DNA of 64,000 bases, from the NCBI GenBank assembly GCA_003962975.1, contig RXKC01000007.1, positions 26,711 through 90,710 of the forward strand. Direction: 5' to 3'. This DNA is from Candidatus Saccharimonadota bacterium (GTDB lineage: Bacteria > Patescibacteriota > Saccharimonadia > Saccharimonadales > AWTP1-31). The notes beneath the pieces were generated by a model, which worked only from the letters and a program-made list of their open reading frames with translations, searched no databases and was not told the origin of the DNA. Each line of letters opens with the position of its first letter. The stretch's first letter is position 1. The position numbers and the translations under genes are program-made. Positions 743 to 61,100 of this stretch are shown piece by piece.

Positions 743-1384
743 CTACTGGCCAGCTTCAGTAACGAAAGCCACGGCAACTACTCCACCAGCAGCAGCTTCA
801 TATCCATGGTCACCAAGTACAGCAGATGACCACTCCTCCATAGGCTCTTCATAGCTTTCGCCTGGAGTCATTGAGACATATTCTTTACCCTGGCCATCAG
901 TCTGCCCAATAACTTCCTCTTTCATCCACACTAAACCAGAATGGTCTGTGTCGTCGTCAGGGTTGCCGCGTGGGTCCATAACACCAAACCATTGTTCATT
1001 ATTGTGATCGACATAAACCAGCGGACTAGCAGCGTGGAGCTCGGTTCCGCTGTTGATGGTGAATGCTATATTGCCAGAATTGTTTCCTTTTTCACCCGTT
1101 GAGTCCTTGTGAGGATACGTATGGAACCTGACGCCAGCACGAGCCACAAAGCTTATATCTGCAACCTTAAAGCCCTCTTCACCCTGTCGCATTTCTGCAA
1201 TAATTTGCGTTTCTGCTGCGGCAGCTTTCTCAGCTGCAGGCGAAGCACAACCGCTCCCAAGTAACGCAATACTGGCTGCGGCAATAGGAAGACCTATTCC
1301 CCGACGCATAAAACCACCGCGAAAACCGCGTTGTTCTAACTGGTTGTCATCATCGGTATGGCGATCAGTAGTGTGTTTTGACAT
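743..1384 (-). CDS. Putative lipoprotein (signal peptide with lipobox LLGSGC); true start may be the internal Met near 1309
   Basis: MRRGIGLPIAAASIALLGSGC signal/lipobox after a 25-aa N-terminal extension. No recognisable catalytic motifs. Confidence 0.55.
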   Translation of the reverse strand: MSKHTTDRHTDDDNQLEQRGFRGGFMRRGIGLPIAAASIALLGSGCASPAAEKAAAAETQIIAEMRQGEEGFKVADISFVARAGVRFHTYPHKDSTGEKGNNSGNIAFTINSGTELHAASPLVYVDHNNEQWFGVMDPRGNPDDDTDHSGLVWMKEEVIGQTDGQGKEYVSMTPGESYEEPMEEWSSAVLGDHGYEAAAGGVVAVAFVTEAGQ

Positions 1385-1391
1385 GTGCTAT

Positions 1392-1420
1392 ATAATAACA
1401 AACATTAGCGTTTTTGTCAA
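1392..1420 (-). promoter_or_regulatory. Sigma70-like promoter TTGACA-N17-TATTAT on the minus strand, predicting a leaderless transcript
   Basis: Minus-strand reading TTGACAaaaacgctaatgtttgtTATTATatagcacATG. The -10 hexamer ends 7 nt before the ATG at 1384. Confidence 0.5.
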
Positions 1421-1457
1421 TGCGGTAGTATCGTATAGGTACTCTGCTCTTCTACGA

Positions 1458-7221: not shown

Positions 7222-7634
7222 AGCTGCTCGCCTGCTCTTGCTCGATTAGCCCACTCGTCTGCCATGATGTTACCTTTATCTGTCGCATGTGCCTTAACCC
7301 AGACAAGTTTGGCCTTTGAATTTCTATAGACAGCCAGCGCTTCTTGTACCAAATCAAGATTTTTTATGGCACCAGTCTTTTTCTTCCAACCATTTTTTTC
7401 CCAGCCGGGTGCCCATACGGTAATGACATTGATCCAGAATTCACTATCTGTGTAAATTGTGCAGTCTTCTTGGCCAGCATCAGTCATAGCGGCAATCAAT
7501 GCCTTGCCTTCCATGCGAATATTTGTCGAGTCGATATCTTTACCCAAAATGTGCGGCTTATTATCCTTTATGACTGCAAAGCCACCAGGCCCAGGATTTG
7601 GGCTACAACTGCCATCGGTATAGTATGTTGTCAT
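7218..7634 (-). CDS. rnhA: Ribonuclease HI
   Basis: YTDGSC start, TDSEF and C-terminal ADEWAN motifs of RNase H type 1. 4-nt overlap with the HAD gene. Confidence 0.8.
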   Translation of the reverse strand: MTTYYTDGSCSPNPGPGGFAVIKDNKPHILGKDIDSTNIRMEGKALIAAMTDAGQEDCTIYTDSEFWINVITVWAPGWEKNGWKKKTGAIKNLDLVQEALAVYRNSKAKLVWVKAHATDKGNIMADEWANRARAGEQL

Positions 7635-8536
7635 TATTTCTCTTTCTGCACGTCTGAGCGCATACGATTCTTATTTATATAGTAAATGCTACCAACCACA
7701 ATAAGTGCGCCAACAAATTTATTCCAACTATACACTTCGTTTAATAGTACAGCACCAACAATGGGCGTGAACACAGGATGAGTATTAGCAATCATAAGCG
7801 CGCGGACAGGGTTGATATAGTGTATCGCAGTAAAGAACGCGCGAATGGTTATCCAGAAAAAAAATCCTGCCAGCAGCGGCCATAGTCCAGCTTGGGTAAT
7901 AATAACTGATTTTCCAAATACGACTAATCCGATTAGCAAAAAGAAGAACCCACCCACTAACAACCTGATATCGGCAAGTGTAGGGGCTGGATAATGTTTC
8001 ATAAGTAGTTTTGAGTATACGTTTGTAAAACCGAGAATTAAGCTTGAACTTACAACAATTAGGTCGCCTTTATTGATCTCGATCGCCTTTAGTCCAACAA
8101 TGGCAATATAAAAACCAAGGAACATGATTACAAACCATCCAAGCTGAGCTCGAGTTAATTTATCTTTGAGCATTATTGACGAGAATATTGCCGTAGTGAT
8201 TATCGTGGTGGTGGCTAATATACTCGCATTAGCTGCTGTCGTGTATCCTTGACCAAACACGAATACAGCTAACCCCGTCCCTGCCAGAACTCCATTTACT
8301 ACTGCGCCCCTCAGCTTCACATCAAACGACACGCCCAGATTTTTTCTATGCGTCAATAACAGGCTCAATAAGGCGAAGAAAGCCCCCGCTGCCAAGAATG
8401 TTACCGTGTATTTAAATACTGGCACTTCATATGTTACATACACATAGCGGTTTATTAATGCATATATACCAAAAGCAAGTGCGCCCACACAGGCATACAG
8501 ATAGCCACTTGATACTTTTGACATGACCTTTAACAT
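7634..8536 (-). CDS. DMT-superfamily (EamA-like) transporter
   Basis: 300 aa, about 10 TM helices, duplicated EamA-like halves. Confidence 0.6.
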   Translation of the reverse strand: MLKVMSKVSSGYLYACVGALAFGIYALINRYVYVTYEVPVFKYTVTFLAAGAFFALLSLLLTHRKNLGVSFDVKLRGAVVNGVLAGTGLAVFVFGQGYTTAANASILATTTIITTAIFSSIMLKDKLTRAQLGWFVIMFLGFYIAIVGLKAIEINKGDLIVVSSSLILGFTNVYSKLLMKHYPAPTLADIRLLVGGFFFLLIGLVVFGKSVIITQAGLWPLLAGFFFWITIRAFFTAIHYINPVRALMIANTHPVFTPIVGAVLLNEVYSWNKFVGALIVVGSIYYINKNRMRSDVQKEK

Positions 8537-9774: not shown

Positions 9775-11118
9775 TTAAAGTTCGTCGATGGAAAGTCGGG
9801 TTTGTTGTGTCGTGTCGCGGTCGCGGATGGTCACGGTATTGTCTTCGAGCGTTTGAAAGTCGATAGTAACGCATTTGGGTGTTCCGATTTCGTCTTGGCG
9901 TCGATAACGTTTACCAATATTGCCGTTGTCGTCCCAAATAACTGACCCATATTTTTGCTTCATGGCTTTGAAAACTTCTTGGGCTTTTTCAACTAACTCT
10001 GGTTTGTTCTTAAGGAGCGGACTGACAGCCATTCGGACCGGGGCGAGATGTTCAGGAAGTTTAAGGTAGATACGTTGCTCGCCATTTTGTTCGTCAACCG
10101 AATAAGAACTATCGATCACTGCTAGGACCAGTCGGTCGAGACCAAACGTTGGTTCAATCACATGCGGGATGAAGGCCTCGCTACCGTCTTTGGGAATATA
10201 CTTTAGATTTTTACCCGAAGCATTGGCGTGTGATGACAAGTCATGGTCGGTACGGTAGGCACAACCACCGAGTTCCTTCTGTCCAATCGTAAAATCAAAC
10301 TCTGTATCGATCGAATGCTTGCTATAGTGCGCCCGGTCTTCAGCTGGTACTTCTATCTTGTGCAGCTTGTCGGCTGGTAGACCAAGACTTAGGTAAAAGT
10401 CTTGCTGCAACTGGAGCCACTTTTCAAACTCCTCTTTCCAATTATCTGGGTGGATAAAGAGTTCGATCTCCATTTGTTCGAGTTCACGTACACGAAAGAT
10501 AAAGTCACGCGGACTAATTTCGTTTCGAAACGCCTTACCAACTTGCGCCAAGGCAAAAGGCATATCAGGGCTAAAGCTATCGACAACGTTCTTGAAGTTA
10601 ACGAACATACCCTGCGCAGTTTCCGGACGGAGGTAGCTGGTAGAGTTCTCGTCCTCAGTAACGCCCACATTTGTCTTGAACATCATGTTAAACTGACGAA
10701 TTTTACTTAGTTGGTTGCCGTCGGGGCTTTTTATGCCCTGCTCTTCGATAACTTGATCCATCTGTGTGGTCGACATAGCCGCTACACCTTCGATACCAAG
10801 ATCTTCCAAAAGGTTGTCGGCACGATACCGTTTTTTGGTCTTTAGATCTTCAACAAGTGGATCATTAAAACCATCGACATGACCACTTGCCTGCCACACT
10901 TTTTGATTCATTAAGATTGCTGCATCAATACCGTAGACGTCATCACGGCTTTCGATAAAAAATTTCCACCATGCATCAACAATATTACGCTTTAGCTGCA
11001 CACCAAGCGGACCGTAGTCCCAGGTACCCGCCAGACCACCATAGATCTCACTACCCTGGTACATAAAACCACGGCGCTTACACAAGCTGACAATATCTTC
11101 TAGTTTGACGTCACTCAT
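9775..11118 (-). CDS. glyQS: Glycine--tRNA ligase (alpha2 dimeric type)
   Basis: N-terminal RRGFMYQGSEIYGGLAGTWDYGPLG, typical of GlyRS class II alpha2. Confidence 0.85.
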   Translation of the reverse strand: MSDVKLEDIVSLCKRRGFMYQGSEIYGGLAGTWDYGPLGVQLKRNIVDAWWKFFIESRDDVYGIDAAILMNQKVWQASGHVDGFNDPLVEDLKTKKRYRADNLLEDLGIEGVAAMSTTQMDQVIEEQGIKSPDGNQLSKIRQFNMMFKTNVGVTEDENSTSYLRPETAQGMFVNFKNVVDSFSPDMPFALAQVGKAFRNEISPRDFIFRVRELEQMEIELFIHPDNWKEEFEKWLQLQQDFYLSLGLPADKLHKIEVPAEDRAHYSKHSIDTEFDFTIGQKELGGCAYRTDHDLSSHANASGKNLKYIPKDGSEAFIPHVIEPTFGLDRLVLAVIDSSYSVDEQNGEQRIYLKLPEHLAPVRMAVSPLLKNKPELVEKAQEVFKAMKQKYGSVIWDDNGNIGKRYRRQDEIGTPKCVTIDFQTLEDNTVTIRDRDTTQQTRLSIDEL

Positions 11119-17398: not shown

Positions 17399-17671
17399 AT
17401 GTCACACGTCAAAGCTGGCGGTACCAGCAAGAACAACCGAGATAGTCAGGGCCAACGCCTAGGTGTTAAGCTCTTTGGTGGTCAAAAAGTAAAGACTGGT
17501 CAGATTATTGTCCGCCAGGTCGGCCTTACTAAGCGCGCTGGTGTTGGCACTAAACTAAGCCGTAACTACACTATTCACGCTGCCAAAGACGGCACCGTGA
17601 AATTTATCGAACGAAAAGTTCGCCTCTTCAGCGGCAAATCAGTCCGCCGCACCGAAGTTACCGTCGAATAG
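17399..17671 (+). CDS. rpmA: 50S ribosomal protein L27
   Basis: MSHVKAGGTSKNNRDSQGQRLGVKLFGGQKVKTGQIIVRQVG, a canonical L27 N-terminus. No rplU upstream. Confidence 0.9.
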   Translation: MSHVKAGGTSKNNRDSQGQRLGVKLFGGQKVKTGQIIVRQVGLTKRAGVGTKLSRNYTIHAAKDGTVKFIERKVRLFSGKSVRRTEVTVE

Positions 17672-17672
17672 A

Positions 17673-19214
17673 CTACCGTTCGTAAGTATATTTAATGCCC
17701 CGCTCTTGGGCTGCCTTCATCCACTGATTATTCCCAAATAACATTGCAAGCGCCGCAACACGGTGTTGGCCCTTTGCTACACCACCGTCCTGCTTTGCAT
17801 TAAGCTGTATAATCTCTCTGTTGCCTCGCACAACATCAAACTTACCAGTCAGTAAATCAGTCATGAGTTCTGCTACATAAAGATGGGAAGGAATGGTTGC
17901 AACCTGACGTCCGTTACGTAGTGCCTCGTTCCGTTGCTTGCCAACATTACCCCTAACCCTATCACCAAACCATTGGTACGGTGAGTTTGGGTCATCCTGC
18001 ATTCTTGATTCAATTGCAACGGCGTTCTCGATCTGGCGGGTCAGTTCCGCTAGACGCTCAGGACTAACACCACCCGCCAGTTCATCTGCCCAGGCTTTAA
18101 CCTGCTCATTGCGCACCGGCATCTCATTCTCGGCTGCTGTCTCAGTAGGTGCTTCATCCTGAACTGTAACGCCAAGTCGACTTAGCATATCAACCAGACT
18201 ACGATCAGAGTCAGCTAGTTTTTCACTTAAGGCAGGTAGCTGGGTTTCAAGTGCTTTCCTGACAAGACGCCCCTGCTCCATATCCAGTTGTGGATTAGTC
18301 TTCTTGTACACAATGGTCATGGCTTTTGTGCGTTGATTTAGGAGCCTCAGTTGATTTTGGTATTGGCCTAACTCTGAACGCAGTGATTTTGGTAACAGGT
18401 GCGTTTTACCACCTGTAAGTTCAGTCAGTTTCCGGAAGCCAGGCCCGTCAAGAAAACGATCAAAGGCTTCTTTGTCAGCATGCGCTACATAGGTCGTACC
18501 ACTACCACGATCAGTCTTTTTGAGACCTACTGCGACAGACTGGCGGACTGGATCAAATTCAGTAAGGTAATCTAACGCCGCCTTTATCTTCTCTCGTTCG
18601 TTTCTTAGGGAAGTAACAGCGGCCTCCACTGTGACCTCTGGCGATAGCCCCCATTGCTCACTTAGCTCAGCCATAGCTACCTGCTGTGAATACGTAAGCT
18701 CGCCTTGTTCCTGCTGATCGCTGCGTCCTTCTTCGGCTAGAGATGCGGGCTGCTCTTCGGGGTATTCCATGTCTACTGTCATGTCCTCATCGTCAAACGT
18801 GTCATCAGCTTGCGTGTCTGCAACTGGTTCCATCGCTTCTACTAGACCTGACTCTTCAACGGCTACTTCTCCAATAGCATGAGCAGTCTCCTGATCTGCC
18901 TGAGTTTCGGGTGTAGCTAAACCTTCGTACCATGCCTTAGGTGCTGTGTCCTCTATATCCGGAGTATTCCAGTCACGAAGGTCGCTCACACGAACCCACT
19001 TTTCCATAATCTGATCCCCGGCTTGCGCACTCACGCGTGCGACATCAAGGGGCTGCTGAGTATTAGGATCAATTGCTCGCCCTAACTCTGCGACTTGCCA
19101 TCCACCCTCCATATGACCAGCGCCTCTTTTTACATTTACCATATCAGGAAGACCCAACTGTTGTGCTGGGGAAACATATTGTTCAGCTGACGATGGGCTC
19201 TGCGCTGGAGGCAT
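17673..19214 (-). CDS. Hypothetical acidic protein with a C-terminal ParB/Srx-superfamily-like motif (KGQHRVAAL)
   Basis: The central region is a long D/E-rich low-complexity segment. The C-terminal GQHR motif resembles the DGQHR/ParB-like nuclease fold. The promoter-like region is shared with the next gene. Confidence 0.35.
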   Translation of the reverse strand: MPPAQSPSSAEQYVSPAQQLGLPDMVNVKRGAGHMEGGWQVAELGRAIDPNTQQPLDVARVSAQAGDQIMEKWVRVSDLRDWNTPDIEDTAPKAWYEGLATPETQADQETAHAIGEVAVEESGLVEAMEPVADTQADDTFDDEDMTVDMEYPEEQPASLAEEGRSDQQEQGELTYSQQVAMAELSEQWGLSPEVTVEAAVTSLRNEREKIKAALDYLTEFDPVRQSVAVGLKKTDRGSGTTYVAHADKEAFDRFLDGPGFRKLTELTGGKTHLLPKSLRSELGQYQNQLRLLNQRTKAMTIVYKKTNPQLDMEQGRLVRKALETQLPALSEKLADSDRSLVDMLSRLGVTVQDEAPTETAAENEMPVRNEQVKAWADELAGGVSPERLAELTRQIENAVAIESRMQDDPNSPYQWFGDRVRGNVGKQRNEALRNGRQVATIPSHLYVAELMTDLLTGKFDVVRGNREIIQLNAKQDGGVAKGQHRVAALAMLFGNNQWMKAAQERGIKYTYER

Positions 19215-19249
19215 TTTTTTGTATAGTTTTTATTTGTGAATAACACTAT

Positions 19250-19281
19250 AACATTAGCATAATATTGCTATTTTAGCAATA
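19250..19281 (-). promoter_or_regulatory. Promoter-like motif ACATTAGCATAATAT plus palindrome TATTGCTA-ttt-TAGCAATA upstream of 17673..19214
   Basis: Minus-strand reading TTGCTA-N17-TAATGT. The 8-bp-arm inverted repeat overlaps the -35 element. Confidence 0.45.
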
Positions 19282-19310
19282 GAGTTTTAAAGCTAATTTA
19301 AGGGTATTAG

Positions 19311-20144
19311 CTATAGATCAGCAGTAGGCTGATATGCGGCAACTGTCTGTCCTGCACATTGCTCTAAATACGCAAACACTTCTTCGATGTTCGTACTAAC
19401 TACTCGCTCAGTGCCGTGTTGCAACGATCGTATTGAGTCATTACCAACCCTCGCATGCTCAAGGCCACCATCGACACCAAAACGCAGATGAGCACTAGCG
19501 CCGTCTGACGGATCGTCATTTGAGTGAACATATATATCCGTATATCCTGCAGATGGACGAAGGTTGTCGTCATATGGCGCATGATAGGTAATATGGATGA
19601 GATCAGCCCGCACAGAATGACTCCATGATTGTGCTCCAATATGATCTATCACCAAAGTTGGTGCTTCACCTAGAAGCGCTGTCGCGCGTATTTTCTCTGT
19701 GTCTGCGCTGGCCCCAAAACGAAAGTGGTTGTTCCACTGCAATTTGTCACCAGGCTTATATGGACCGCCTATTGGGCGGCTCTTAGCATCTTCAATAAGT
19801 ACAGCTGCCCAGCCCGGGTAACTTGCTGACTGATGAGGGATATCAATGGCGGTTTGCAGCAGCTTTATTGCGCCTTTGTTAGGCCCTACGGCTTCATCAA
19901 CAGCAACAGCCATTTGGTGGCGCCACATCTGGTCAATGCCATTGTTTTGGCGTTCTATGTCTCGGTATGACACCCTACCTATTCCGTGCGCCATGCGGTG
20001 TAATCGACTGGTCTCTTGAGCTGGACGCAAAGGCTCACCTCGAGTAGCTGCGCCGTAGGTGCTAAGCAACGAGGGTTTATCTTTTCGTGAAGAATTCTTT
20101 GCCATATCAATATAAACATTAGCATAATATATACAAAAAAGCAA
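19311..20144 (-). CDS. Hypothetical protein (likely start at MAKNSS, 20105)
   Basis: 277-aa ORF. No confident family assignment. Confidence 0.4.
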   Translation of the reverse strand: MLFCIYYANVYIDMAKNSSRKDKPSLLSTYGAATRGEPLRPAQETSRLHRMAHGIGRVSYRDIERQNNGIDQMWRHQMAVAVDEAVGPNKGAIKLLQTAIDIPHQSASYPGWAAVLIEDAKSRPIGGPYKPGDKLQWNNHFRFGASADTEKIRATALLGEAPTLVIDHIGAQSWSHSVRADLIHITYHAPYDDNLRPSAGYTDIYVHSNDDPSDGASAHLRFGVDGGLEHARVGNDSIRSLQHGTERVVSTNIEEVFAYLEQCAGQTVAAYQPTADL

Positions 20145-20163
20145 TAGCAGTATCTGCTATTGC
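20115..20163 (-). promoter_or_regulatory. Second copy of ACATTAGCATAATAT plus palindrome GCAATAGCAG-tat-CTGCTATTGC
   Basis: A 16/16 identical core to the 19250 site. Perfect 10-bp-arm inverted repeat. Minus-strand reading TTGCTT-N17-TAATGT. Confidence 0.45.
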
Positions 20164-20187
20164 TTTAGTTCTGGCTCTGTTTTGAGA

Positions 20188-20622
20188 CTAAACAGTTAGG
20201 TGATGCTTGATGCGCTCTACTACATCGGCAATCACGACTTGAGACTTAACCAAGTAATCGTCAGCACCGAGGCTTTGGGCACGCTCTTTGTCACTATCTT
20301 GGCTAAGTGCCGTTAACATTACTACTTTCACCTTAGCGGTTTCAGGAGTGTTGCGGAGGATATCCAAGACATCAAAGCCGCTTACTTTTGGCATCATCAC
20401 GTCCAGGACAATCAGGTCAGGACGGTACTCTAATGCACCTGCGAGAGCATCTTCCCCGTTAGGTACCCTTTTTACATCGAAGCCTTCAGCCTGTAATCTG
20501 GTTTGATAAACGCTGGCTAGCGCATCATCATCTTCGACGAGCAGAATCTTATGTTGCTTGGTTGCGGGTTTTGTTGGTTCATCCATAGTGCTAATGGTAG
20601 TATATTCTACCCACTTTGGCAA
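20188..20622 (-). CDS. Single-domain response regulator (CheY-like receiver); probable start at MDEP
   Basis: Canonical LLVEDDD, LIVLDVMMP (phospho-Asp), MLTA and YLVKS residues. Confidence 0.8.
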   Translation of the reverse strand: MPKWVEYTTISTMDEPTKPATKQHKILLVEDDDALASVYQTRLQAEGFDVKRVPNGEDALAGALEYRPDLIVLDVMMPKVSGFDVLDILRNTPETAKVKVVMLTALSQDSDKERAQSLGADDYLVKSQVVIADVVERIKHHLTV

Positions 20623-24806: not shown

Positions 24807-25751
24807 TTACTTGCTGGTCTTAAATTTGAGATATCGCCTAGTTGCGATAAGTGACGACAACGCGCCAATAAAAATACCTACGAGCAGTTGCAGAAGTAAG
24901 AAGAGCCAAAAATGGCGGGAAAAATATTGGTTTGAGAACTGAATATCGAGTAAGCCCAGGCTGCTAGCTTCGAAAGTCTTAGCAGAAATCGAGAATAGAC
25001 TACGTACAATAGTTATCGACACGAGGCCCGAAACAACACCGTACATAATGCTTTCGACAATAAATGGACCTCGAATAAAGTTAGTACTTGCGCCTAATAA
25101 GCGCATTATGGTCAACTCATCACGTCGGTTAAAGATTGCCATTTGAATAGTATTAAAGATGATCAGCATTGAGATAACAGCGAACACAATCACCCCAGCA
25201 ATGCCTGCGCGCTGAAAGAAGTTGGTTGCACTTGTAATTTTATCGATAGCCGCTTTGCGGTCACCAGAATATGATGTCTCGTCAGACTGCAATGCTTTGA
25301 TCTCAGGTTTTTCTAGGAATGTGCGAATACTTTCGATACGATTTGGGTCTTTAGGCCGAATTTGCAAACTAGCTGGCAGCGGATTCTCGGTTTGCGAAAT
25401 AGCCTGTAGCAGCTCTGGATTATTTGCGTTCTGCTGACGATATACTTTGAGAGCTTCGTCTTTAGTAACAAAGTTAACGTCTCGCACGTTTTCTAAGCCA
25501 CGTACCTGTGTTATCAGGCCATCTAATTGCTTGCTAGTGACTTCATCTTTAATGTAGACCGAAATATCAATGCGGTCAGTAATAGTCTGGATAGTATTTG
25601 CAAACGTTGCATTAGCGATAACCGAAAACAAGATAATTGTCAGGGTTATTACCATGACAGCCATAGCAGCAATCCCAAGCCATGCGTTACGAATAAAGTT
25701 CAGTATTCCGGTGCGCACGATACGGCGCATCATAATCAAGCCTCGCTTCAC
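24807..25751 (-). CDS. ftsX: Cell division permease FtsX
   Basis: 4-TM FtsX topology with a large extracellular loop. 4-nt overlap with ftsE. Confidence 0.8.
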   Translation of the reverse strand: MKRGLIMMRRIVRTGILNFIRNAWLGIAAMAVMVITLTIILFSVIANATFANTIQTITDRIDISVYIKDEVTSKQLDGLITQVRGLENVRDVNFVTKDEALKVYRQQNANNPELLQAISQTENPLPASLQIRPKDPNRIESIRTFLEKPEIKALQSDETSYSGDRKAAIDKITSATNFFQRAGIAGVIVFAVISMLIIFNTIQMAIFNRRDELTIMRLLGASTNFIRGPFIVESIMYGVVSGLVSITIVRSLFSISAKTFEASSLGLLDIQFSNQYFSRHFWLFLLLQLLVGIFIGALSSLIATRRYLKFKTSK

Positions 25752-26428
25752 GCGTGGTACTCCGCATTCGCCCTATCACTTACAACCGTTCCATCTTGGA
25801 TGGTTATCACTCGTCGTTTGAGTTTATTAACGATTTCTTGATTATGGGTAGTCAATAGTACAGTGGTTCCGAAGCGATTGATTTTTTCAAGTACACGTAT
25901 CACATCCCAAGCGTGTTTTGGGTCAAGGTTGCCGGTTGGCTCATCGGCAATAAGAATACGTGGCTGCCGCACGATAGCCCTGGCAATAGCAACACGTTGT
26001 CGTTCACCACCAGAGAGTTCTCTTGGCATGCGCTTCTCTTTACCCTTCAAACCAACGATATCTAAAACACGTGGAACAGTGTGGTCGATTTCTTTATTGC
26101 CCATACCGACGATCTCTAAGGCAAAGGCTACGTTTTCCCAAACAGTTTTATTTGGCAACAGCTTAAAATCTTGGAATACTACGCCAATTTTACGACGCAA
26201 CAGAGGTATTTCTTTATCTTTCAGAGTTTCGTAGTCGATGCCACCAACAATGATCTTGCCGCTGGTTGGCTTCTCTTCTCTGGTCAGGAGTTTAAGTAAG
26301 GTAGATTTGCCGGCACCACTGGGTCCGACAATAATAACAAATTCCTTTGGTTCGACATGAAGACTAATGCGTTCGAGCGCTGGTCCACTGCGATTATACT
26401 TCTTGGTTACCCTATCCAATAAAATCAT
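25748..26428 (-). CDS. ftsE: Cell division ATP-binding protein FtsE
   Basis: Walker A GPSGAGKST, ABC signature LSGGERQR, Walker B ILIADEPT. 226 aa. Confidence 0.85.
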   Translation of the reverse strand: MILLDRVTKKYNRSGPALERISLHVEPKEFVIIVGPSGAGKSTLLKLLTREEKPTSGKIIVGGIDYETLKDKEIPLLRRKIGVVFQDFKLLPNKTVWENVAFALEIVGMGNKEIDHTVPRVLDIVGLKGKEKRMPRELSGGERQRVAIARAIVRQPRILIADEPTGNLDPKHAWDVIRVLEKINRFGTTVLLTTHNQEIVNKLKRRVITIQDGTVVSDRANAEYHA

Positions 26429-33354: not shown

Positions 33355-34299
33355 TTATTCGGCTTCTTTACCTATTCTCTGCCCAAGTGCTTGCAATAAT
33401 TCGGCACCCTGGGGAGTTCTGGGTCGCGCTGTTTCGATAAACTCTAGGACTGCTTCACGGCTTCCGCCTCGTGTCACGTGCAGCTTACTGCACGCCATGC
33501 CGAAGAGTACCTTGTCATATAGATACCTCAGGTATTTTTCGGCGTAGTCCGTACGTACAGTGTGATTATCCAGCAGACTAATCAGTCCCTGTGGGTTACG
33601 ATCGTTCGCCAACACCTTAGCAACCCTCAGCAGTTCGCGGTCGTACATAAGATCTACTCGAGAATTGGGCGGTAATTTCTTCAGTCGAAATAATTCAGTG
33701 AACATACCAAAGTCTTGTGTCTGTTCTGGAACTCCTACGGAAAAAGGGCTATTACCAAACAATGGCACACGTGGCTTGCCCGACCGACGGCGATGCGCCG
33801 TAATTGCACCCAGCGTTGGCTCGGTAAATCGTGATGGCACGAGATCAAGTCCATCTAATTCGGCATCCAGATAGTCTAAATCGCTGCCCTCTAGGTATTC
33901 TCTATCTGATTGAGTGAACACGCGACTATCAGGCTCTTGCTGAGCATCATCTTCAAGCAGACTCGTTAAATACGTTTTTATTGTAGTCGCCGACTCATGT
34001 TCTGGATCCTGAGCAGTAATACGCTCAAGCACATTAATACCTAAGGCAAAAGTTCTGGCTACATCAGTTGTGCCAATAAAATCCATGACGGACTGAACGC
34101 TTGATATATCACCTTCCAAAGCGACTCGAGTGAGCGTCGCTGTCGCCCATTCTCGTCGGAGTCGAAGTTCTTCGCCAGGATCAATATTTCGGCGTAAGTC
34201 GTGAACTGCGTGGCGTAGTGGCGTATCAGGCGCTTCTGTAATAAAAGGCGCACAAATCTGCGCCAGTAACTCTGGTTGTTGGTCTCCCTGAACCTGCAT
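33355..34299 (-). CDS. Hypothetical protein (314 aa)
   Basis: No recognisable motif. Lies 20 nt upstream of the Cas4-like nuclease gene. Confidence 0.4.
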   Translation of the reverse strand: MQVQGDQQPELLAQICAPFITEAPDTPLRHAVHDLRRNIDPGEELRLRREWATATLTRVALEGDISSVQSVMDFIGTTDVARTFALGINVLERITAQDPEHESATTIKTYLTSLLEDDAQQEPDSRVFTQSDREYLEGSDLDYLDAELDGLDLVPSRFTEPTLGAITAHRRRSGKPRVPLFGNSPFSVGVPEQTQDFGMFTELFRLKKLPPNSRVDLMYDRELLRVAKVLANDRNPQGLISLLDNHTVRTDYAEKYLRYLYDKVLFGMACSKLHVTRGGSREAVLEFIETARPRTPQGAELLQALGQRIGKEAE

Positions 34300-35822: not shown

Positions 35823-36623
35823 CTACGGGCGCAGTGCACCTGCAAAAACCTGCCAAGCTAATGCTGACTTTGCTACTAGGCTCAATACCATATAGGTACG
35901 TTCGCCGTATAGATAGTTACTCCACTTGCCGGTCTTTTTGTACTGCAAGTACATATTGACTGCGAAACTACCGAAGAATACGAATAGGCTGCCGTAAATA
36001 AAGTAAACAAAGGTTGGGATACCCCCTGAACCGTAAACATTGGCACCAATAAAGTAAATGGCCAGCACAATCCACGGCACAATGCCTGCTAATGTACCGA
36101 CCCAGAATGGTAACCAGTCAACTTGTTTGTTGGTTTGATTCTTGAGCTCCATAACAAGACCGAGCAAGTTCATGACAAGCGTTAGTACAAACATCATCAG
36201 TAGCGATGAAAGGTCATAAACCCCAGTCAGGACACCGATAGCGACAATCATCGTGCTGGCGCTAAAGCCGTATTCAATCCACCGAAACTTGTTGATGCCC
36301 TTTTTGAGATCAGCTTCGTACGTTTTACGACCACGAGTCGCCACAACTATGTGAGCGATGGCTGACATAAAGAAAAAGGTTGCCACAAGATGAGCAAGGT
36401 TAACATTAAAGAGTACTTGCGCTGCTGGTGCCAGAACCGGACGCTCAGCTATTTTTGATGCGATGCTGTCTTGGGTTAGAAAACTGGTGGTAATTGGCCA
36501 GCTCACACCCTTACTCAGAATGAGCACCAAAATGCCCTGTACTGCGTGTAGTACGGCTAATCGCTTGTTCCATGTATTTAATGAGCTTGTTGAAATAGTT
36601 GGTGATTTTGTTGTAAGTCGCAT
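35823..36623 (-). CDS. Heliorhodopsin-like seven-TM retinal-binding protein
   Basis: 7 TM, 266 aa. The C-terminal helix SLVAKSALAWQVF carries the conserved Schiff-base Lys. The FRWIEYGFSAS counterion Glu helix and LQYKKTGKWSNYLYGER loop match, as recalled, the characterised heliorhodopsin 48C12. Confidence 0.7.
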   Translation of the reverse strand: MRLTTKSPTISTSSLNTWNKRLAVLHAVQGILVLILSKGVSWPITTSFLTQDSIASKIAERPVLAPAAQVLFNVNLAHLVATFFFMSAIAHIVVATRGRKTYEADLKKGINKFRWIEYGFSASTMIVAIGVLTGVYDLSSLLMMFVLTLVMNLLGLVMELKNQTNKQVDWLPFWVGTLAGIVPWIVLAIYFIGANVYGSGGIPTFVYFIYGSLFVFFGSFAVNMYLQYKKTGKWSNYLYGERTYMVLSLVAKSALAWQVFAGALRP

Positions 36624-39564: not shown

Positions 39565-40274
39565 TACTTCTTTGCCCTCGCTACAGTCTTACGAGTTGGT
39601 TTTGTAACCAAACTGTCTATCTTGCCGTCCTTTAGCCTCACTTGTATCTTACAGCGAGCTGCTAGTTCATCATCATGTGTCACAATCACGAGTGTACTGC
39701 CAAGCGTTTTATTAATACTAAATAGTAAATCAATAATCTTATCGCCTGTTGCACTATCGAGGTTACCGGTTGGCTCATCAGCAAAGATAAGTTTTGGACG
39801 ATTAACGATCGCCCTGGCGATTGCTAGTCGCTGCTTTTGGCCTCCAGATAGGTTGCGAGCTCGACTGTTTGCTTTCTCACTCAAATCTACGGCCGCTAAA
39901 GCATCCATGACTCGTTGCTTGCGGTCGCGCCCACGAACCTCCGCAATTTCAAGCGGCAACATAACGTTCTGATAGCATGTCTGGTTACCTTCTACGAAGA
40001 AAGCCTGAAAGATAAAGCTCATTTGCTCAGCCCGAAACGCATCGATCTGTTTGGGCTTCATTTGCTGCAGTACCGTACCGTCAACCGTTACATGTCCGTC
40101 ACTCGGTGTATCTAGACCACTCATGATGTGCATGAGGGTTGATTTACCCGATCCACTTTTACCAATAATAGCCACTGTGGCGCCATCTTTAATGCTTAGG
40201 CTAATGTCGTCGAGCGCTGTAAAAGCACTGTCCTTCTTGCCATACGTTTTCGTAATGTTTGCTACCTCAATCAT
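39564..40274 (-). CDS. ABC transporter ATP-binding protein (MacB/LolD-like)
   Basis: Walker [10 protein letters not shown], signature LSGGQKQR, Walker B LIFADEPT. 1-nt overlap with the permease. Confidence 0.85.
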
Positions 40275-57352: not shown

Positions 57353-58127
57353 CTTGTTTCTTCCTTGCTAGATGGTCTATACGAGCCTTCATCTGATTAA
57401 GCAATGTTTCCGTAGTCTCGCTAATATCGCCACTTTGCATCTGCTGGCATTGCCCGTCCTGGATGTGCACCAGTTGGTCTGCAAGTGGCAAATACTCCAT
57501 ATTATGTGTCACCAGAATGATCGTACGATTAAGGTCTCGCTGATAGCTTTCAAGCAGAGCCATAATCATGTCACCATTCTTGCTATCCAGACTTCCCGTT
57601 GGTTCGTCGGTAATGATTACCGATGGATCATTTACAATAGCGCGAGCCATGGCAATACGCTGTTGCTCACCACCAGATAGCATGAGTGGACTTTTCTTGG
57701 CAAAAGGTGCCATGTCTACTCGTTGCAGCGCGTCCATAGCTTTTTTGGCCGCTGCAGCACGGTTATAGCCCAAAAAGAACAGTGGAATCGACACATTTTC
57801 GATGACATTAAGGCTATTCACCCAATAGTTCTGCTGGTAGACCACCCCTATACTTTTTGCCCTAAAGTAGGCTAGTTGTTCGGCGGAATACTTGTATATA
57901 TCTCTACCGTCGTATGTAACCTGCCCACCACTGGGAACCTGGATACCACTCAGGACATTGAGAAGGGTTGATTTACCCGACCCTGAAGGGCCATAGATAA
58001 TGTTGAAGGAGTTCTTTTTGATTGTGAAACTACTTGGATGAAGTACTTTGAGCATCTCTTCTCCAATCTTGAAAGATTGCTCCAGGTTGCTAACACGAAT
58101 AAGAATTTGCCCACCCTCGTCTTGCAT
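57345..58127 (-). CDS. ABC transporter ATP-binding protein (MacB-like)
   Basis: [24 protein letters not shown] motifs. 4-nt overlap with the 3' end of the giant surface-protein gene. Confidence 0.85.
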
Positions 58128-58129
58128 AC

Positions 58130-61100
58130 CTAAAGCCCAAATACCTTTCTCAGTGTGTTGAGTACTATGTTCAATACACTATCTGAGGCACGGCCGATAA
58201 TAGCAGCCTGCGGCTTGGTTGTTGAAGCGTTGTTTGATTTGTCTCGCGATACCGGCATGATGCTATAGACTCGGCTTGGCGGCAAGTCAGAAACAATAAC
58301 TAAGTGCTCGGTCGTAAGCTGAGCATCTTCGGCGGTACGATTGTTAAATACCGTAACTGCTGAACCTTCGGCGTAGGCTACTTGGCTTGTGGAAGGCTCA
58401 TCTGTCTTCCAGGAAACAACGATTTGTCCGCGGGCCTCTGCACCCGTACCACGAATAGTTGGCTCGATAACCACATCAAAGACATTCGGTGGACGAGTAT
58501 CTAGCGCTGTCTTGAAAACTTGACGATCTGATACAGCTAGGTTACCACTGGCGTCACGCCCCTGGGCGATTAAGAAGTACTCACTATTATCTTCAAGTCC
58601 ACGAATGACCATTTCATGCATGGTCTTTAGCTCCTGAGATTGAACAATCGTACCATCGGTGCCAACCTTGCCATATTGCACGATCGAATTTGTCGGGATA
58701 TTAGTCGTCCAGGTAACTTGCTGAGTACTAGTCGGCTCACCAATAAGTGGCTGAAAACGCAGATTACTAATTGCTGGTCGTGGTGGAGTGGTGAAAGAGA
58801 ATATACTGCTCTGATATTTACCGCCTTCTGTATCTTGCATGACTAAGCGGTACAGATACTTCGTGCCGTCGTCCAGGCCATTCAACTCAAGTTCATAGGT
58901 CGATTCGCTGAGGGCAGTATTTATTGATTTTACGCCGCCAAATGAATCGGTTCGCCCGTACTGCAACTCAACTTTTACGGCGTCCTTGACAGTAAACTGC
59001 AGTGTTACGGTCGATAAGCTGACAGAAAGTGTGTCCACCTCTTTCAATACAGGAGCGGGCGCAGTCGTAAAGCTATATTCTTGACTTACTCCGGTGTTAC
59101 CGTCGGTGTCGGTCCAACGTGCCTGGAAGTAATAGGTTGTCCCGGCAGCTAAGTTGTCTAGGTCCAGCTTATGAGCTGTCACTTGTGATGAATTACCAAT
59201 TTCTGACGGACTGTATTCACCGCTAGTCACTCCAATGGCAATCTTACTGTCGGAAGCTCTATCTGTAGACCACGTGATTGTTGCCCGCTTAGTAGTGACA
59301 CCACTAACTACTGGTTCACTGGTCATTGCAGCAGGTTCCGTAAACTTACCCGTTGGAATCATCGAGGCAACTCCCGTAAATGCTCCGCAGTTATTGGCGC
59401 TATCGCAGGCTCGCACCTTATAGTAATACTCTACCTGGCTTAAGCCACCGTCGACAAAAGATGTGCCGCTACTAGATCCAACTTGAGTAAAGTTACTGTT
59501 ATCAGTGGAACGGAAAACTCGGTAGCTGCTTACACCAGCGCCGACATTTGCCGGTGCATCCCATGTTACCGCCAACCTCCAGTTGCTGGTTGCCTTCACA
59601 GACACATCAGCTGCATCTATATTAGTTGGTATTCCTGGCGCCGGGGTGTTAGCTGTAAACGTTACGCTCGCATAGCTCGAATAGTTAATTGCTCCAAAGT
59701 CATCTTTACCTACGACATAGAGAGTGTTCGACCCAGGCTGGGTTGCATACGGTCCATCGGGCAAACTAGTTACTCCAGCAGCCGTAAAGTTACAGTTACT
59801 TACATTAGGCAGGGTATTAACGACGTAACAGTATGTCAGCCTATCTGGTTGGCCTGTGGTCGTATTAAAGGTAGCCGGTGCATCCCAAGAAAATTCGAAT
59901 TCGTTAGTCGTATTAGTGGCAGGAGTTGCTGTAAGGTTCTGCGGCTCACTCGGTGCACCAGTCGTATTAATACGCAGTACTGCCGTGACGTAGCTATTTG
60001 TCACGTTACCGGCGGCATCCCATGTTCTAAAGTAGACAGTATTGATGCCGTCGACAAGATTATCAAAGTCCGGCGGGTCAACGGTTGTATAGTTGCCGTC
60101 ACCGACCGTCAGCAGGTCATTGATATCGCCGGCGCCAGTATGATCTTCGCCGTACCATGCAGTGTTGCCAATTCGATATTGCAAGCCCGCTACTCCAGAG
60201 TTTGCATCACTAGCTGCATCTCCCCCAGTGGTTGGCCAAGTTATTGTTGCTGTTTTGGTATTTATAAATCCAGAAGGTGCTGATACATACCCCGGGTTAG
60301 CTGGTGCTGTATTGTCGAATCTAAACTGGAATTGTTCCGAGGTCGAAGCAACATTACCAGCTTTATCTATCGCCTTGATATTGAGGTAGTACGGCGTGTT
60401 TGAACTGGACAGTGCGGTTCCTAGCAGTCCAGACGTTGCCAAATCGAGGCTCGTACCAGACACGGCAAACTGACACGCCGAATTGGTATCTATCGGGCTG
60501 GCACCGAGTAATCCTTTGCTCGTTTCAGGATCATCGCTAGAAGAGTGGCCAAGGTATAGACAATATCCCAAGATGCCTGCCCCGCTATCAGTTCCAGCCG
60601 TCCAGGTAAAGTATGGCGAGGCTCCGTTGGTCCATGCATTTGAATTTAAACTAGTCCCACCATTCGACTTGAAGGCTAGAATGTTCGAAGCATTAGTATC
60701 CGGCCCATTATTATCTGCATTAGCGCCCAGTTCAACTGAATTTACAGTAACCTGCTGATTGCCATCCCCTTTAAGCAATGCCTGCCACATTAAACCGTCA
60801 AAGGTCACCGGAAAATCACCTATGTTTGCATTGATCACGGAAGCAGCATTAGCGTCTGACACACTACTTGATAGGACCCAAGCTGATCCATTCCAGTACT
60901 TCCAGGTATTGCCTTCGTTATCACTCAGGCGATAGGTTATTGCTCCGCCGTTAGTGATCTCACTAGTAGTGAAGCTGTCCCAGTCTTGCACCCCAGACTT
61001 GCGCACAGCCGACGACAACACAACACCTTGGTGTGTATTTGCATACGGCCTACTATTAAAACTCGTCCGGGCTGTATTACTTATCCTAATTTCATCTAAA

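What the first reader, a model, noticed from the sequence alone, without database searches (positions are those of the whole stretch)
17673..20187. Two adjacent unknown genes share an identical 16-nt promoter-like core flanked by related palindromes
ACATTAGCATAATAT is identical (16/16) at 19250-19265 and 20115-20130, each about 30-50 nt upstream of a start codon. Each copy abuts an inverted repeat built from the same half-site (TATTGCTA-ttt-TAGCAATA and GCAATAGCAG-tat-CTGCTATTGC). Read on the minus strand, both give TTGCT(A/T)-N17-TAATGT with the -35 inside the palindrome, which suggests a shared repressor or operator. The regulated products are a 513-aa acidic protein with a ParB/DGQHR-like C-terminal motif (KGQHRVAAL) and a 277-aa protein with no assignable family. 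A standalone CheY-like receiver lies immediately upstream. This could be a small co-regulated module, possibly of foreign origin.
Basis: seen in the sequence. Interest (0 to 1): 0.55.

Follow-up and report, generated by a model that had tools for sequence, protein, structure and literature searches.

The report
Reused promoter in variable gene slot
Two neighbouring genes of unknown function in a Saccharibacteria (TM7) genome each carry a copy of the same strong promoter and lie in a small chromosomal slot whose genes differ in almost every related species. One of the flanking "palindromes" is a transcription terminator and the other appears to be a by-product of the promoter sequence, so neither looks like a repressor site.

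Summary
The repeat is real. AACATTAGCATAATAT is exact at 19250 and 20115, and it extends to a gapped 33-mer, which on the gene strand reads CTATTGCT-N9-ATATTATGCTAATGTT. This is a sigma-70-type promoter: -35 TTGCT(A/T), a 17-nt spacer, and an extended -10 TGCTAATGT.

The upstream palindrome is the strong intrinsic terminator of the CheY-like receiver gene, and it is conserved in relatives. The downstream palindrome does not fold stably. It arises from the -35 hexamer plus a GCAA spacer motif that is common in strong promoters of this clade. A shared operator is not supported.

The organism is a Saccharibacterium. The order S41-pyrG-receiver-[slot]-rpmA is conserved across the order, but the slot holds anywhere from nothing to 4.5 kb of genes. 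Almost every slot gene has its own copy of this promoter type.

Both window genes belong to small Saccharibacteria-specific families that recur in this slot, so they are not foreign. The 264-aa family gives a confident predicted fold with no match among PDB or viral structures. The 513-aa protein lacks the FHA domain that its two full-length relatives carry, and its ParB/DGQHR likeness could not be verified. The identical 24 specified bases also occur upstream of unrelated genes on three other distinct metagenome loci.

The parts
20188..20586 (-). Standalone CheY-like receiver gene (132 aa), the conserved left border of the variable slot
   Evidence: Pfam Response_reg E = 3.5e-24. Orthologues at 66-98% identity sit in the same synteny in 18 Saccharibacteria loci.
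20131..20166 (-). Intrinsic terminator of the receiver gene. The stem is AAAGCAATAGCAG/CTGCTATTGCTTT with loop AUA, followed by a T tract. Its 3' arm contains the -35 hexamer of the next promoter.
   Evidence: Terminator scan finds 13 pairs plus TTTGTATATA. RNA fold gives -17.8 kcal/mol, z = -5.5. Equivalent hairpins occur in L001, L007 and L087.
20115..20147 (-). Promoter copy 2 (33-nt block). The -35 TTGCTT is at 20139-20144, the extended -10 TGCTAATGT at 20116-20124. The spacer is the T tract of the terminator (class T). It drives the 264-aa gene with a leader of at most about 4 nt.
   Evidence: PWM score 30.5 bits. The spacer matches the receiver-proximal promoters of L007, L008a, L087, L001 and L008b at 8, 7, 7, 6 and 6 of 9 positions.
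19311..20105 (-). 264-aa protein (RTK94414.1, annotated hypothetical). It belongs to a small uncharacterised Saccharibacteria family, called the 'A2 family' here.
   Evidence: Exhaustive HMMER search finds 17 representatives, one of which is spurious. No Pfam, PHROG, PADLOC, NCBIfam or PDB sequence hit. AlphaFold2 pLDDT 86.9, pTM 0.81, with no Foldseek hit at E <= 0.001 in PDB or BFVD (best E 0.019 and 0.15). Homologues lie between the receiver gene and rpmA in L087, L089-91, L094 and L101.
19285..19311 (-). Flank just after the 264-aa stop codon. It resembles the sequence that follows the receiver stop codon in relative L001.
   Evidence: 20 of 27 identical, and this is the best match in the whole window. 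The alignment shows a 17-nt gap that removes the terminator's 5' arm.
19250..19282 (-). Promoter copy 1 (33-nt block). The -35 TTGCTA is at 19274-19279, the extended -10 TGCTAATGT at 19251-19259. The spacer AAAATAGCA is class A. It drives the 513-aa gene.
   Evidence: PWM score 32.3 bits, the top of the window. The spacer matches L097, L098 and L100 at 6-7 of 9 positions. Identical in four strain contigs.
19262..19280 (.). Perfect palindrome TATTGCTA-N3-TAGCAATA, made of the -35 hexamer plus the spacer GCAAT motif. It is not a credible terminator.
   Evidence: The MFE structure does not use it, and z = -1.4. GCAA at the same spacer position occurs with TTGACA -35 boxes in L012, L014 and L020.
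19215..19250 (-). A-rich 36-nt leader of the 513-aa gene, with no Shine-Dalgarno sequence
   Evidence: It aligns with the leader of the L001 homologue and matches the slot-wide leader GTTAATTAAAACAAAAA-ATG. This supports the ATG at 19214 rather than the gene callers' Met35.
17673..19214 (-). 513-aa acidic protein. It has a unique N-terminus, an acidic linker and a helical middle region. The conserved C-terminal ~110-aa GQHR domain is at 17676-18005.
   Evidence: 37% identical over residues 154-508 to the 585-aa L001 protein, which carries a sub-threshold FHA match (17 bits, below Pfam's 20.7 cut-off). Homologue in L096, where the gene is split. The C-terminus also resembles that of L012_451. 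pI 4.75.
17399..17671 (+). rpmA (ribosomal protein L27), convergent with the slot genes. It is the conserved right border of the slot, and its stop codon lies 1 nt from the 513-aa stop codon.

Best explanation
The region is the variable gene slot that Saccharibacteria carry between a conserved CheY-like receiver gene and rpmA.

In this genome the slot holds two separate transcription units. Each is driven by its own copy of a near-consensus housekeeping-sigma promoter: -35 TTGCTx, a 17-nt spacer, an extended '-16 TRTG' -10 reading TATGCTAATGT.

Copy 2 is the ancestral receiver-proximal promoter. Its -35 box lies in the 3' arm of the receiver gene's intrinsic terminator, and its spacer is the terminator's T tract. 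It produces a leaderless or nearly leaderless mRNA for the 264-aa protein.

Copy 1 is a second member of the same promoter family. It has the clade's usual A-rich GCAA spacer and a 36-nt A-rich leader without a Shine-Dalgarno sequence, and it drives the 513-aa gene. No credible terminator separates the two genes, so the 513-aa gene is probably also transcribed by read-through from copy 2.

The repeat therefore reflects reuse or duplication of a promoter module when two slot genes were combined, or equivalently when one was deleted in relatives by recombination between the repeats. It does not reflect a shared operator.

Shown: the repeat, the terminator, the synteny, the slot variability, the family memberships, and the recurrence of the promoter. 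Inferred: promoter activity, the transcription start sites, read-through, and the recombination history.
For: - Repeat and gapped extension.
- A weight matrix from 16 slot promoters of other species ranks the two sites first and second in the window (32.3 and 30.5 bits), with only one other site above 12 bits.
- The terminator is detected and stable in the window, L001, L007 and L087.
- The synteny S41-pyrG-receiver-[slot]-rpmA-UPF0020 holds in 18 genome loci. The slot ranges from 13 bp to 4.5 kb, and none of those loci encodes a relative of either window protein.
- Relative L001 has receiver-terminator-promoter-585-aa homologue-rpmA without the 264-aa gene.
- L087, L089 and L101 have the 264-aa family alone, and L094 has an FHA protein followed by an A2 member.
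- Promoter-plus-leader direct repeats before successive slot genes also occur in L008 (84 nt, 73% identical) and L012 (58 nt, three copies).
- Spacer classes: copy 2 groups with the receiver-proximal promoters, and copy 1 groups with L097, L098 and L100.
- Exact 24-base matches occur upstream of unrelated genes on four metagenome contigs, representing three distinct loci.
- About 20 of 62 window genes have a -10 box 6-9 nt before the ATG, so a leaderless 264-aa mRNA fits the genome's habit.
- Saccharibacteria are naturally competent and integrate DNA by homologous recombination (PMC10633639).
Against: - There are no transcript data, so promoter strength, start sites and read-through are all inferred.
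- By the E. coli consensus the hexamers are mediocre (TTGCTA 4 of 6, TAATGT 3 of 6), and the generic scan did not call them on the gene strand.
- The 24 flanking bases are perfectly identical while the 9-nt spacer matches at only 1 of 9 positions. Simple duplication followed by drift does not explain this, so it requires selection, spacer replacement, or independent recruitment of two family members.
- Only 64 kb of this genome could be searched.
- The perfect 19-bp palindrome between -35 and -10 of copy 1 sits where a repressor would bind. Such a function is not excluded.
Confidence: 0.72

Rival explanations
1. Shared operator. A dimeric regulator binds the CTATTGC/GCAATAG dyads at both promoters and co-regulates the two genes.
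For: Both sites contain inverted repeats built from the same 7-mer. In copy 1 and in three other distinct loci (four contigs) the dyad TATTGC-N7-GCAATA lies between -35 and -10, a classic repressor position. The sequence is identical in four strain contigs.
Against: - The copy-2 dyad is a textbook terminator directly after a stop codon and is conserved as a structure in relatives.
- Half-site orientation and spacing differ between the copies: GCAATAG-N9-CTATTGC versus CTATTGC-N5-GCAATA.
- Copy 2, L001 and L007 lack the spacer GCAAT.
- Spacer GCAA occurs without a partner half-site in promoters with a TTGACA -35.
- There is no third dyad in the window, and CTATTGC occurs 8 times where chance predicts about 8.
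- No DNA-binding protein is encoded in the slot.
Confidence: 0.1
2. Recent insertion of a foreign cassette. The 264-aa gene arrived from outside the lineage (phage, plasmid or another phylum) with its own promoter, and the 865-bp direct repeat marks the insertion.
For: The nearest available relative of the 513-aa locus (L001) lacks the 264-aa gene. The segment is bracketed by the 33-nt repeat 865 bp apart. The flank after the 264-aa stop codon resembles a receiver-stop flank.
Against: - GC content is 0.47-0.51, the same as its neighbours.
- There are no phage or viral relatives.
- Five of the six other contexts examined for the family place it in this same slot (L087, L089-91, L094, L101). In L089-91 its start even overlaps the receiver stop codon.
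- No integrase or transposase is nearby in the window.
Confidence: 0.1
3. Convergence rather than common descent. The two sites are independent instances of one optimal promoter sequence for this lineage's RNA polymerase, and they are identical because every position is under selection.
For: The same 24 bases occur at three unrelated loci in other metagenomes. The two copies have different spacer classes. Strong promoters across the order share -35, spacer and -10 features.
Against: Orthologous promoters in close relatives differ at 2-7 of the 24 positions yet still score about 31-35 bits (L087 only 19), so not every position is essential. The similarity of copy 1 to L097 and L100 continues into the leader (56 nt at 82%, 42 nt at 90%), which points to homology.
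Confidence: 0.2

Closest known systems
Sigma-70/SigA promoters with an extended -10 ('-16 TRTG' region of Gram-positive promoters)
   Same: The -35 TTGxxx, 17-nt spacer, TATG immediately upstream of the -10, and a -10 of the form TAnnnT. The -10 to ATG distance matches the leaderless genes in the same genome.
   Different: The lineage-specific -35 variant CTATTGCT and a conserved spacer motif (AAAAnnGCAA) are not part of the textbook consensus. No experimental start site exists for any Saccharibacterium at this locus. The TRTG comparison rests on my own knowledge, not on a test here.
Rho-independent terminator overlapping the next gene's promoter (compact-genome terminator-promoter junction)
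   Same: A stable hairpin plus T tract directly after the receiver stop codon, with the next -35 in the 3' arm.
   Different: The overlap is conserved across several species (window, L001, L007, L087). The same -35 sequence is reused in a second copy where the 5' arm is missing.
Putative mobile promoters / promoter reuse in prokaryotes (PMC3575422)
   Same: Highly similar promoter sequences sit upstream of non-homologous genes, both within one genome and between genomes.
   Different: The copies here are concentrated in one small syntenic slot and include a leader. No associated mobile element was seen, except an IS1595 transposase in the L019 slot.
Chromosomal hotspots of gene turnover flanked by core genes
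   Same: Conserved flanks (pyrG-receiver on one side, rpmA-UPF0020 on the other), with contents ranging from empty to 4.5 kb that differ even between relatives whose receivers are 94-98% identical.
   Different: The slot is very small. All cargo runs in the same direction as the receiver gene. The cargo is dominated by FHA, PP2C and lineage-specific proteins rather than defence or mobile genes (PADLOC negative).
ParB/sulfiredoxin-fold DGQHR (DndB-like) domains
   Same: The motif (D)GQHR followed by a helix (AAALAML). Predicted secondary-structure order is helix-strand-strand-helix.
   Different: No Pfam, NCBIfam or PDB sequence match at E <= 10. The structure model is unreliable (pLDDT 44.7). 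Membership is not established.
FHA-domain phosphothreonine-binding signalling proteins
   Same: Relatives of the 513-aa protein (L001, L096) and many other slot proteins carry FHA domains, some fused to PP2C.
   Different: The window's 513-aa protein has no FHA domain. Its first ~150 residues are unrelated to those of its homologues.

Membership tests
Sigma-70-type promoter with extended -10 | Two hexamers at 16-18 nt spacing, with TG one base upstream of the -10 | tested here: met
   TTGCT(A/T)-N17-TAATGT preceded by TGC at both sites. Top two scores with a weight matrix built from other species.
Sigma-70-type promoter with extended -10 | Transcription actually starts about 7 nt downstream of the -10 | not testable with these tools
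   No transcript data. Indirect support only: leaderless spacing is common in this genome.
Intrinsic (rho-independent) terminator (palindrome at 20138-20166) | Stable stem-loop directly followed by a T/U tract, downstream of a stop codon | tested here: met
   13-pair stem plus a T tract, with the stem beginning 21 nt after the receiver stop codon. Fold energy -17.8 kcal/mol, z = -5.5. Conserved as a structure in L001, L007 and L087.
Intrinsic terminator (palindrome at 19262-19280) | Stable stem-loop plus T tract | tested here: not met
   The MFE structure does not use the 8-bp hairpin. MFE is -7.9 kcal/mol, z = -1.4, and 15 of 200 shuffles fold as well. The tail UUAUGCUAAU is a poor U tract.
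Repressor operator shared by a regulon | The same dyad geometry at each regulated promoter | tested here: not met
   Half-sites are divergent with a 9-nt gap at copy 2 and convergent with a 5-nt gap at copy 1.
Repressor operator shared by a regulon | Further sites elsewhere and a cognate DNA-binding protein | tested here: inconclusive
   The 64-kb window has no further dyad, and the half-site occurs at chance frequency. No HTH protein is encoded in the slot. The rest of the genome could not be searched.
ParB/Srx DGQHR domain (C-terminus of the 513-aa protein) | Significant profile match to ParBc or DGQHR/DndB models | tested here: not met
   No such family at E <= 10 in Pfam or NCBIfam for any of four members. 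No PDB sequence hit.
ParB/Srx DGQHR domain (C-terminus of the 513-aa protein) | ParB/Srx fold | tested here: inconclusive
   AlphaFold2 with 3 sequences gave pLDDT 44.7. The secondary-structure order is compatible, but the model is not fit for a fold search.
FHA domain protein | Pfam PF00498 match | tested here: not met
   None in the 513-aa protein. Present above threshold in L007, L010, L011, L014 and L094, and weak in L001 and L096.
Saccharibacteria 'A2' family (264-aa protein) | Full-length homology to the ~250-270-aa family and a position between the receiver gene and rpmA | tested here: met
   phmmer E-values from 6e-33 to 6.5e-4 against 15 true relatives. The alignment covers residues 13-260. 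Same slot in L087, L089-91, L094 and L101.
Anti-phage defence system or phage gene | Match to PADLOC or PHROG models, or to phage genomes | tested here: not met

The most novel reading that the evidence does not exclude
The receiver-rpmA slot is an order-wide diversification hotspot in Saccharibacteria. Portable promoter-leader modules drive strong expression of fast-evolving proteins there. These include FHA and PP2C modules fused to protease-like or unknown domains, the A2 family with an apparently new fold, and the GQHR domain family. The proteins act in the epibiont-host conflict, for example by interfering with host phosphothreonine/FHA threat signalling, or as partners of the adjacent CheY-like receiver.
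Probability: 0.15. Interest if true: 0.8.

Novelty: new variant of a known kind. Interest (0 to 1): 0.42.

Why it matters
As a regulatory feature the finding is ordinary: a reused strong promoter and a terminator.

Following it up exposed three things that are not described in the papers I could search:
- A tiny, precisely bounded slot next to a highly conserved CheY-like receiver gene. Its gene content turns over even between Saccharibacteria whose flanking genes are 80-98% identical.
- Slot genes that repeatedly carry copies of one promoter-leader module.
- Cargo enriched in FHA/PP2C signalling domains and in families with no known fold or function.

Saccharibacteria are obligate epibionts. 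A 2026 preprint (PMC13622651) reports that their actinobacterial hosts sense them through a kinase-to-FHA pathway. Such a fast-evolving, apparently strongly expressed locus is therefore a reasonable place to look for host-interaction or signalling factors. The promoter itself is a candidate strong expression element for the new Saccharibacteria genetics (PMC10633639).

Tried and rejected
- Domain searches: Pfam, PHROGs, PADLOC and NCBIfam on both proteins gave nothing.
- Paralogy: I tested whether the 264-aa protein is a diverged paralogue of the 513/585-aa proteins, which would indicate a tandem gene duplication. It shows no similarity.
- Locus search: the search for related loci with the 16-member family alignment failed because the alignment is too divergent. 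The receiver protein was used instead.
- C-terminal domain: the structure model of the 513-aa C-terminal domain was too poor to use.
- Spurious relative: P0016, a 2783-aa 'relative' of the 264-aa protein, is a eukaryotic FERM/PDZ repeat protein that matches a low-complexity stretch. It was discarded.
- N-terminus: an apparent resemblance between the 513-aa N-terminus and the C-terminus of L012_543 is not significant.
- Non-coding RNA: Rfam finds no RNA family in the region.
- Composition: the composition profile shows no anomaly.
- Mobile origin: there is no copy of the promoter and no relative of either protein in viral contigs or phage genomes.
- Literature: a search for this slot or for Saccharibacteria promoter mapping found nothing specific.
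Full report
**Observation**

The 16-mer AACATTAGCATAATAT is exact at 19250-19265 and 20115-20130 and has no other copy in the window, even allowing three mismatches. On its own this is weak evidence, because the window contains five unrelated exact direct repeats of 16 nt or more.

The match does, however, continue in register to AACATTAGCATAATAT-N9-AGCAATAG at both places. None of 100 shuffles reproduced this. The two copies also occupy the two intergenic gaps of a run of three minus-strand genes.

On the gene strand the block reads CTATTGCT-N9-ATATTATGCTAATGTT. That gives a -35 of TTGCT(A/T), a 17-nt spacer, and TGC-TAATGT, which is an extended -10.

Three corrections apply. The upstream gene starts at the ATG at 20105 and encodes 264 aa; the family alignment begins there, and the listed TTG at 20144 lies inside the promoter. 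Its promoter therefore ends only 10 nt before the start codon. The receiver gene is 20188-20586.

**The palindromes**

The palindrome at 20138-20166 begins 21 nt after the receiver gene's stop codon and is followed by a T tract. The terminator scan finds it. As RNA it folds at -17.8 kcal/mol (z = -5.5). Equivalent hairpins follow the orthologous receiver genes of L001, L007 and L087. It is therefore the receiver gene's intrinsic terminator, and the -35 hexamer of the next promoter lies in its 3' arm.

The second palindrome (19262-19280) does not behave like a terminator. The minimum-energy fold does not use it, z = -1.4, and the tail is not U-rich. It consists of the -35 variant TTGCTA plus a GCAAT in the spacer. 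GCAA at that spacer position is common in strong promoters of this clade, including ones with a TTGACA -35 where no dyad results (L012, L014, L020).

The two palindromes also have opposite half-site geometry. CTATTGC occurs in the window at chance frequency, and there is no third dyad. A shared operator is therefore not supported, although a repressor at the copy-1 dyad cannot be excluded.

**Organism and context**

The receiver protein retrieves orthologues at 66-98% identity in Saccharibacteria (TM7, Patescibacteria) genomes. The 264-aa protein is RTK94414.1, annotated as a hypothetical protein of a Candidatus Saccharibacteria MAG.

In 18 genome loci the order S41 peptidase-pyrG-receiver-[slot]-rpmA(reverse)-UPF0020(reverse) is conserved. 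The distance between the receiver gene and rpmA varies widely:
- 13-17 bp in L013, L021 and L028;
- 93 bp in L017;
- 0.7-4.5 kb, holding one to four genes, elsewhere. All of these genes run in the receiver's direction.

None of the 18 loci encodes a relative of either window protein. Slot proteins are related only in scattered pairs.

Pfam identifies several domains among the cargo:
- FHA domains in L007 (fused to PP2C), L010, L011, L014 and L094, with weak matches in L001 and L096;
- PP2C in L012;
- an IS1595 transposase and an SLT domain in L019.

Two further readings come from the sequences only. L009 and L015 share an HExxH motif, and L008 and L011 share a Cys/His/Asp pattern like that of transglutaminase-type proteases.

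Contents differ completely even among genomes whose receivers are 94-98% identical and whose pyrG is about 80% identical (window, L001, L007, L008, L087).

**The two window proteins**

Neither protein matches Pfam, PHROGs, PADLOC or NCBIfam.

*The 264-aa protein.* In the word-indexed search it has only near-identical (99%) copies of itself. An exhaustive HMMER scan finds 15 true distant relatives of 250-275 aa, plus one spurious eukaryotic repeat protein.

Of the six other contexts examined, five are in this same slot:
- L087: receiver-A2-rpmA.
- L089-91: the same order, with the A2 start codon overlapping the receiver stop codon.
- L094: receiver-FHA protein-A2-rpmA.
- L101: (partial ORF, presumably the receiver)-A2-rpmA.
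- L092 is the one context that lies elsewhere.

AlphaFold2 with the family alignment gives a confident model (pLDDT 86.9, pTM 0.81). It has three N-terminal helices, a beta domain of about ten strands, and a C-terminal helix. Foldseek finds no significant match in the PDB or in BFVD. The family profile finds nothing in PDB sequences or Pfam.

*The 513-aa protein.* It is 37% identical over residues 154-508 to a 585-aa protein in L001, which has an N-terminal FHA-like region. It is also related to a gene in L096 that an in-frame stop codon splits into 442 + 110 aa. Both relatives lie in the slot.

Its C-terminal ~110 residues form the conserved GQHR domain, which is also seen at the end of L012_451. 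The ParB/DGQHR likeness could not be verified. There are no profile hits at E <= 10, and the structure model is unusable (pLDDT 44.7).

Both families are therefore native, recurrent residents of this slot and are not foreign. GC content is ordinary, and there are no phage or viral relatives.

**The promoter as a family**

Nearly every slot gene in every species is preceded by the pattern TTGACA or TTGCxx, then 17 nt, then T(A/T)TGCTAATAT-like. This is usually followed either by an ATG within about 10 nt or by an A-rich leader without a Shine-Dalgarno sequence (GTTAATTAAAACAAAAA-ATG).

A weight matrix built from 16 such promoters of other species scores the two window sites 32.3 and 30.5 bits. 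Only one other site in 64 kb exceeds 12 bits. It scores 21.3 bits and precedes a leaderless 213-aa gene with no Pfam match.

Across 324 kb of Saccharibacteria sequence, about 23 of 33 hits of 17 bits or more fall in slots, which make up 11% of that sequence. Sixteen of the 33 hits were training sites.

Promoter-plus-leader direct repeats before successive slot genes also occur in L008 (84 nt, 73% identical) and L012 (58 nt, three copies).

A scan of public metagenomes for the 24 specified bases found four contigs representing three distinct loci. All are upstream of unrelated genes. The two downstream proteins that could be tested have no Pfam match, and the third is cut off by the contig end. 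All three loci have the spacer ending GCA, as copy 1 does. Similarity to copy 1 extends into the leader.

The 9-nt spacers fall into two classes:
- Copy 2 groups with the receiver-proximal promoters of L001, L007, L008 and L087. In this class the spacer is the terminator's T tract.
- Copy 1 groups with L097, L098 and L100.

So the element is not a ubiquitous promoter in this window, but it is not private to this pair either.

**History (inferred)**

L001 shows receiver-terminator-promoter-585-aa gene without the 264-aa gene. The 27 nt after the 264-aa stop codon match the sequence after the L001 receiver stop codon at 20 of 27 positions. This is the best match in the whole window, and a 17-nt gap removes the terminator's 5' arm.

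Two scenarios fit. In one, a receiver-proximal intergenic region was duplicated when an A2 gene and a 513-type gene were joined. In the other, relatives lost one gene by recombination between the repeated promoters. The data do not polarise the event.

One fact is explained neither by plain duplication and drift nor by chance. The spacer differs completely (1 of 9 identical) while the flanks are perfectly conserved (24 of 24). I take this to indicate spacer replacement or selection.

Natural competence and homologous recombination in Saccharibacteria (PMC10633639) give a plausible route for allelic replacement through the conserved flanks. Promoter reuse is itself a described phenomenon (PMC3575422).

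**Mechanism proposed**

Receiver-gene transcripts stop at the hairpin. RNA polymerase holoenzyme then initiates at copy 2 and produces a leaderless or nearly leaderless 264-aa mRNA. This fits the roughly 20 of 62 window genes that have a -10 box 6-9 nt before their ATG.

With no effective terminator after the 264-aa gene, transcription probably continues into the 513-aa gene. That gene also has its own promoter (copy 1) and a 36-nt A-rich leader homologous to that of L001. The leader homology supports the ATG at 19214 over the gene callers' Met35.

The two genes are thus likely to be expressed together and strongly. This would result from promoter duplication and read-through rather than from a dedicated regulator.

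**Verdict**

The promoter reading is right. The operator, ParB and foreign-origin readings are not supported.

The regulatory feature itself is a new variant of known kinds (promoter reuse, terminator-promoter overlap, a core-flanked hotspot). The more interesting result is the slot: a small, order-wide, fast-turnover locus next to a conserved CheY-like receiver. It is populated by FHA/PP2C proteins and by two uncharacterised families, one of which has a confident fold without a known match.

A link to host interaction is speculation. It is prompted by the epibiotic lifestyle and by a 2026 preprint on host FHA-based sensing of Saccharibacteria (PMC13622651).

Noticed in passing
window, genome-wide (e.g. 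1458-2741, 7634-8536, 9775-11118, 25748-26428, 33355-34299, 35823-36623): About 20 of 62 genes have a TAnnnT -10-like box 6-9 nt upstream of the ATG and no Shine-Dalgarno sequence. Leaderless mRNAs therefore seem common in this Saccharibacterium. The remaining genes mostly have GGAG-type Shine-Dalgarno sequences.
   Followed up: partly
window 1386-1424 (-), gene 743-1384 (-): This is the third strong consensus promoter in the window (TTGACA-N17-TGTTATTAT, 21 bits). It lies directly before a leaderless 213-aa protein with no Pfam match.
   Followed up: partly
L012 7715-7753 and 9134-9172; L014 6904-6942; L020 6430-6468; window 1386-1424: Strong promoters across Saccharibacteria share a conserved spacer motif, TTGACAAAAnnGCAAnnAT-TG-n-TAnnnT. 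This is more sequence conservation in the spacer than the textbook promoter model expects.
   Followed up: partly
L007-L023 slot intergenic regions; window 19215-19250: Slot genes share an A-rich leader without a Shine-Dalgarno sequence (GTTAATTAAAACAAAAA-ATG). Many of their proteins begin MSE, MTE or MA, as if promoter, leader and the first codons travel together.
   Followed up: no
window 17669-17675: The stop codons of rpmA (+) and the 513-aa gene (-) are separated by a single nucleotide, with no terminator between them. Convergent transcripts must therefore overlap.
   Followed up: no
L089 7998-8003 (also L090, L091): The A2-family gene start overlaps the receiver gene's stop codon (TAATG). 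In those species the two genes form an operon, which suggests a functional link between the receiver and the A2 protein.
   Followed up: partly
L096 688-2418: The homologue of the 585-aa FHA/GQHR protein is interrupted by an in-frame TAA, giving 442 + 110 aa. This could be a pseudogene, a split gene or read-through. The 110-aa part is annotated as a separate hypothetical protein.
   Followed up: partly
L001 530-2395: The database protein P0002 (621 aa) reads through the TAG at 2285-2287 into the antisense strand of rpmA. The real ORF is 585 aa. This is a gene-calling artefact from an alternative genetic code.
   Followed up: yes
L019 7483-8436 and 9477-10757: In one species the slot contains an IS1595-family transposase and a protein with a weak, sub-threshold SLT (lytic transglycosylase) match. 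This is the only mobile-element gene seen in any slot.
   Followed up: no
window 40135-40151 and 57964-57980; 61978-63049: An exact 17-mer, AGGGTTGATTTACCCGA, is shared by two distant genes. Several exact 16-18-nt repeats lie inside the 1788-aa gene at 58130-63496, which therefore has internal repeats.
   Followed up: no
L009 6905-8260 and L015 780-2201; L008 6714-7445 and L011 1640-2887: Some slot proteins carry motifs that look enzymatic but that Pfam does not recognise. One homologous pair shares a conserved HExxH. Another pair shares a Cys...GGHAW...D pattern like that of transglutaminase-type proteases; in L011 this region is fused to an FHA domain.
   Followed up: no
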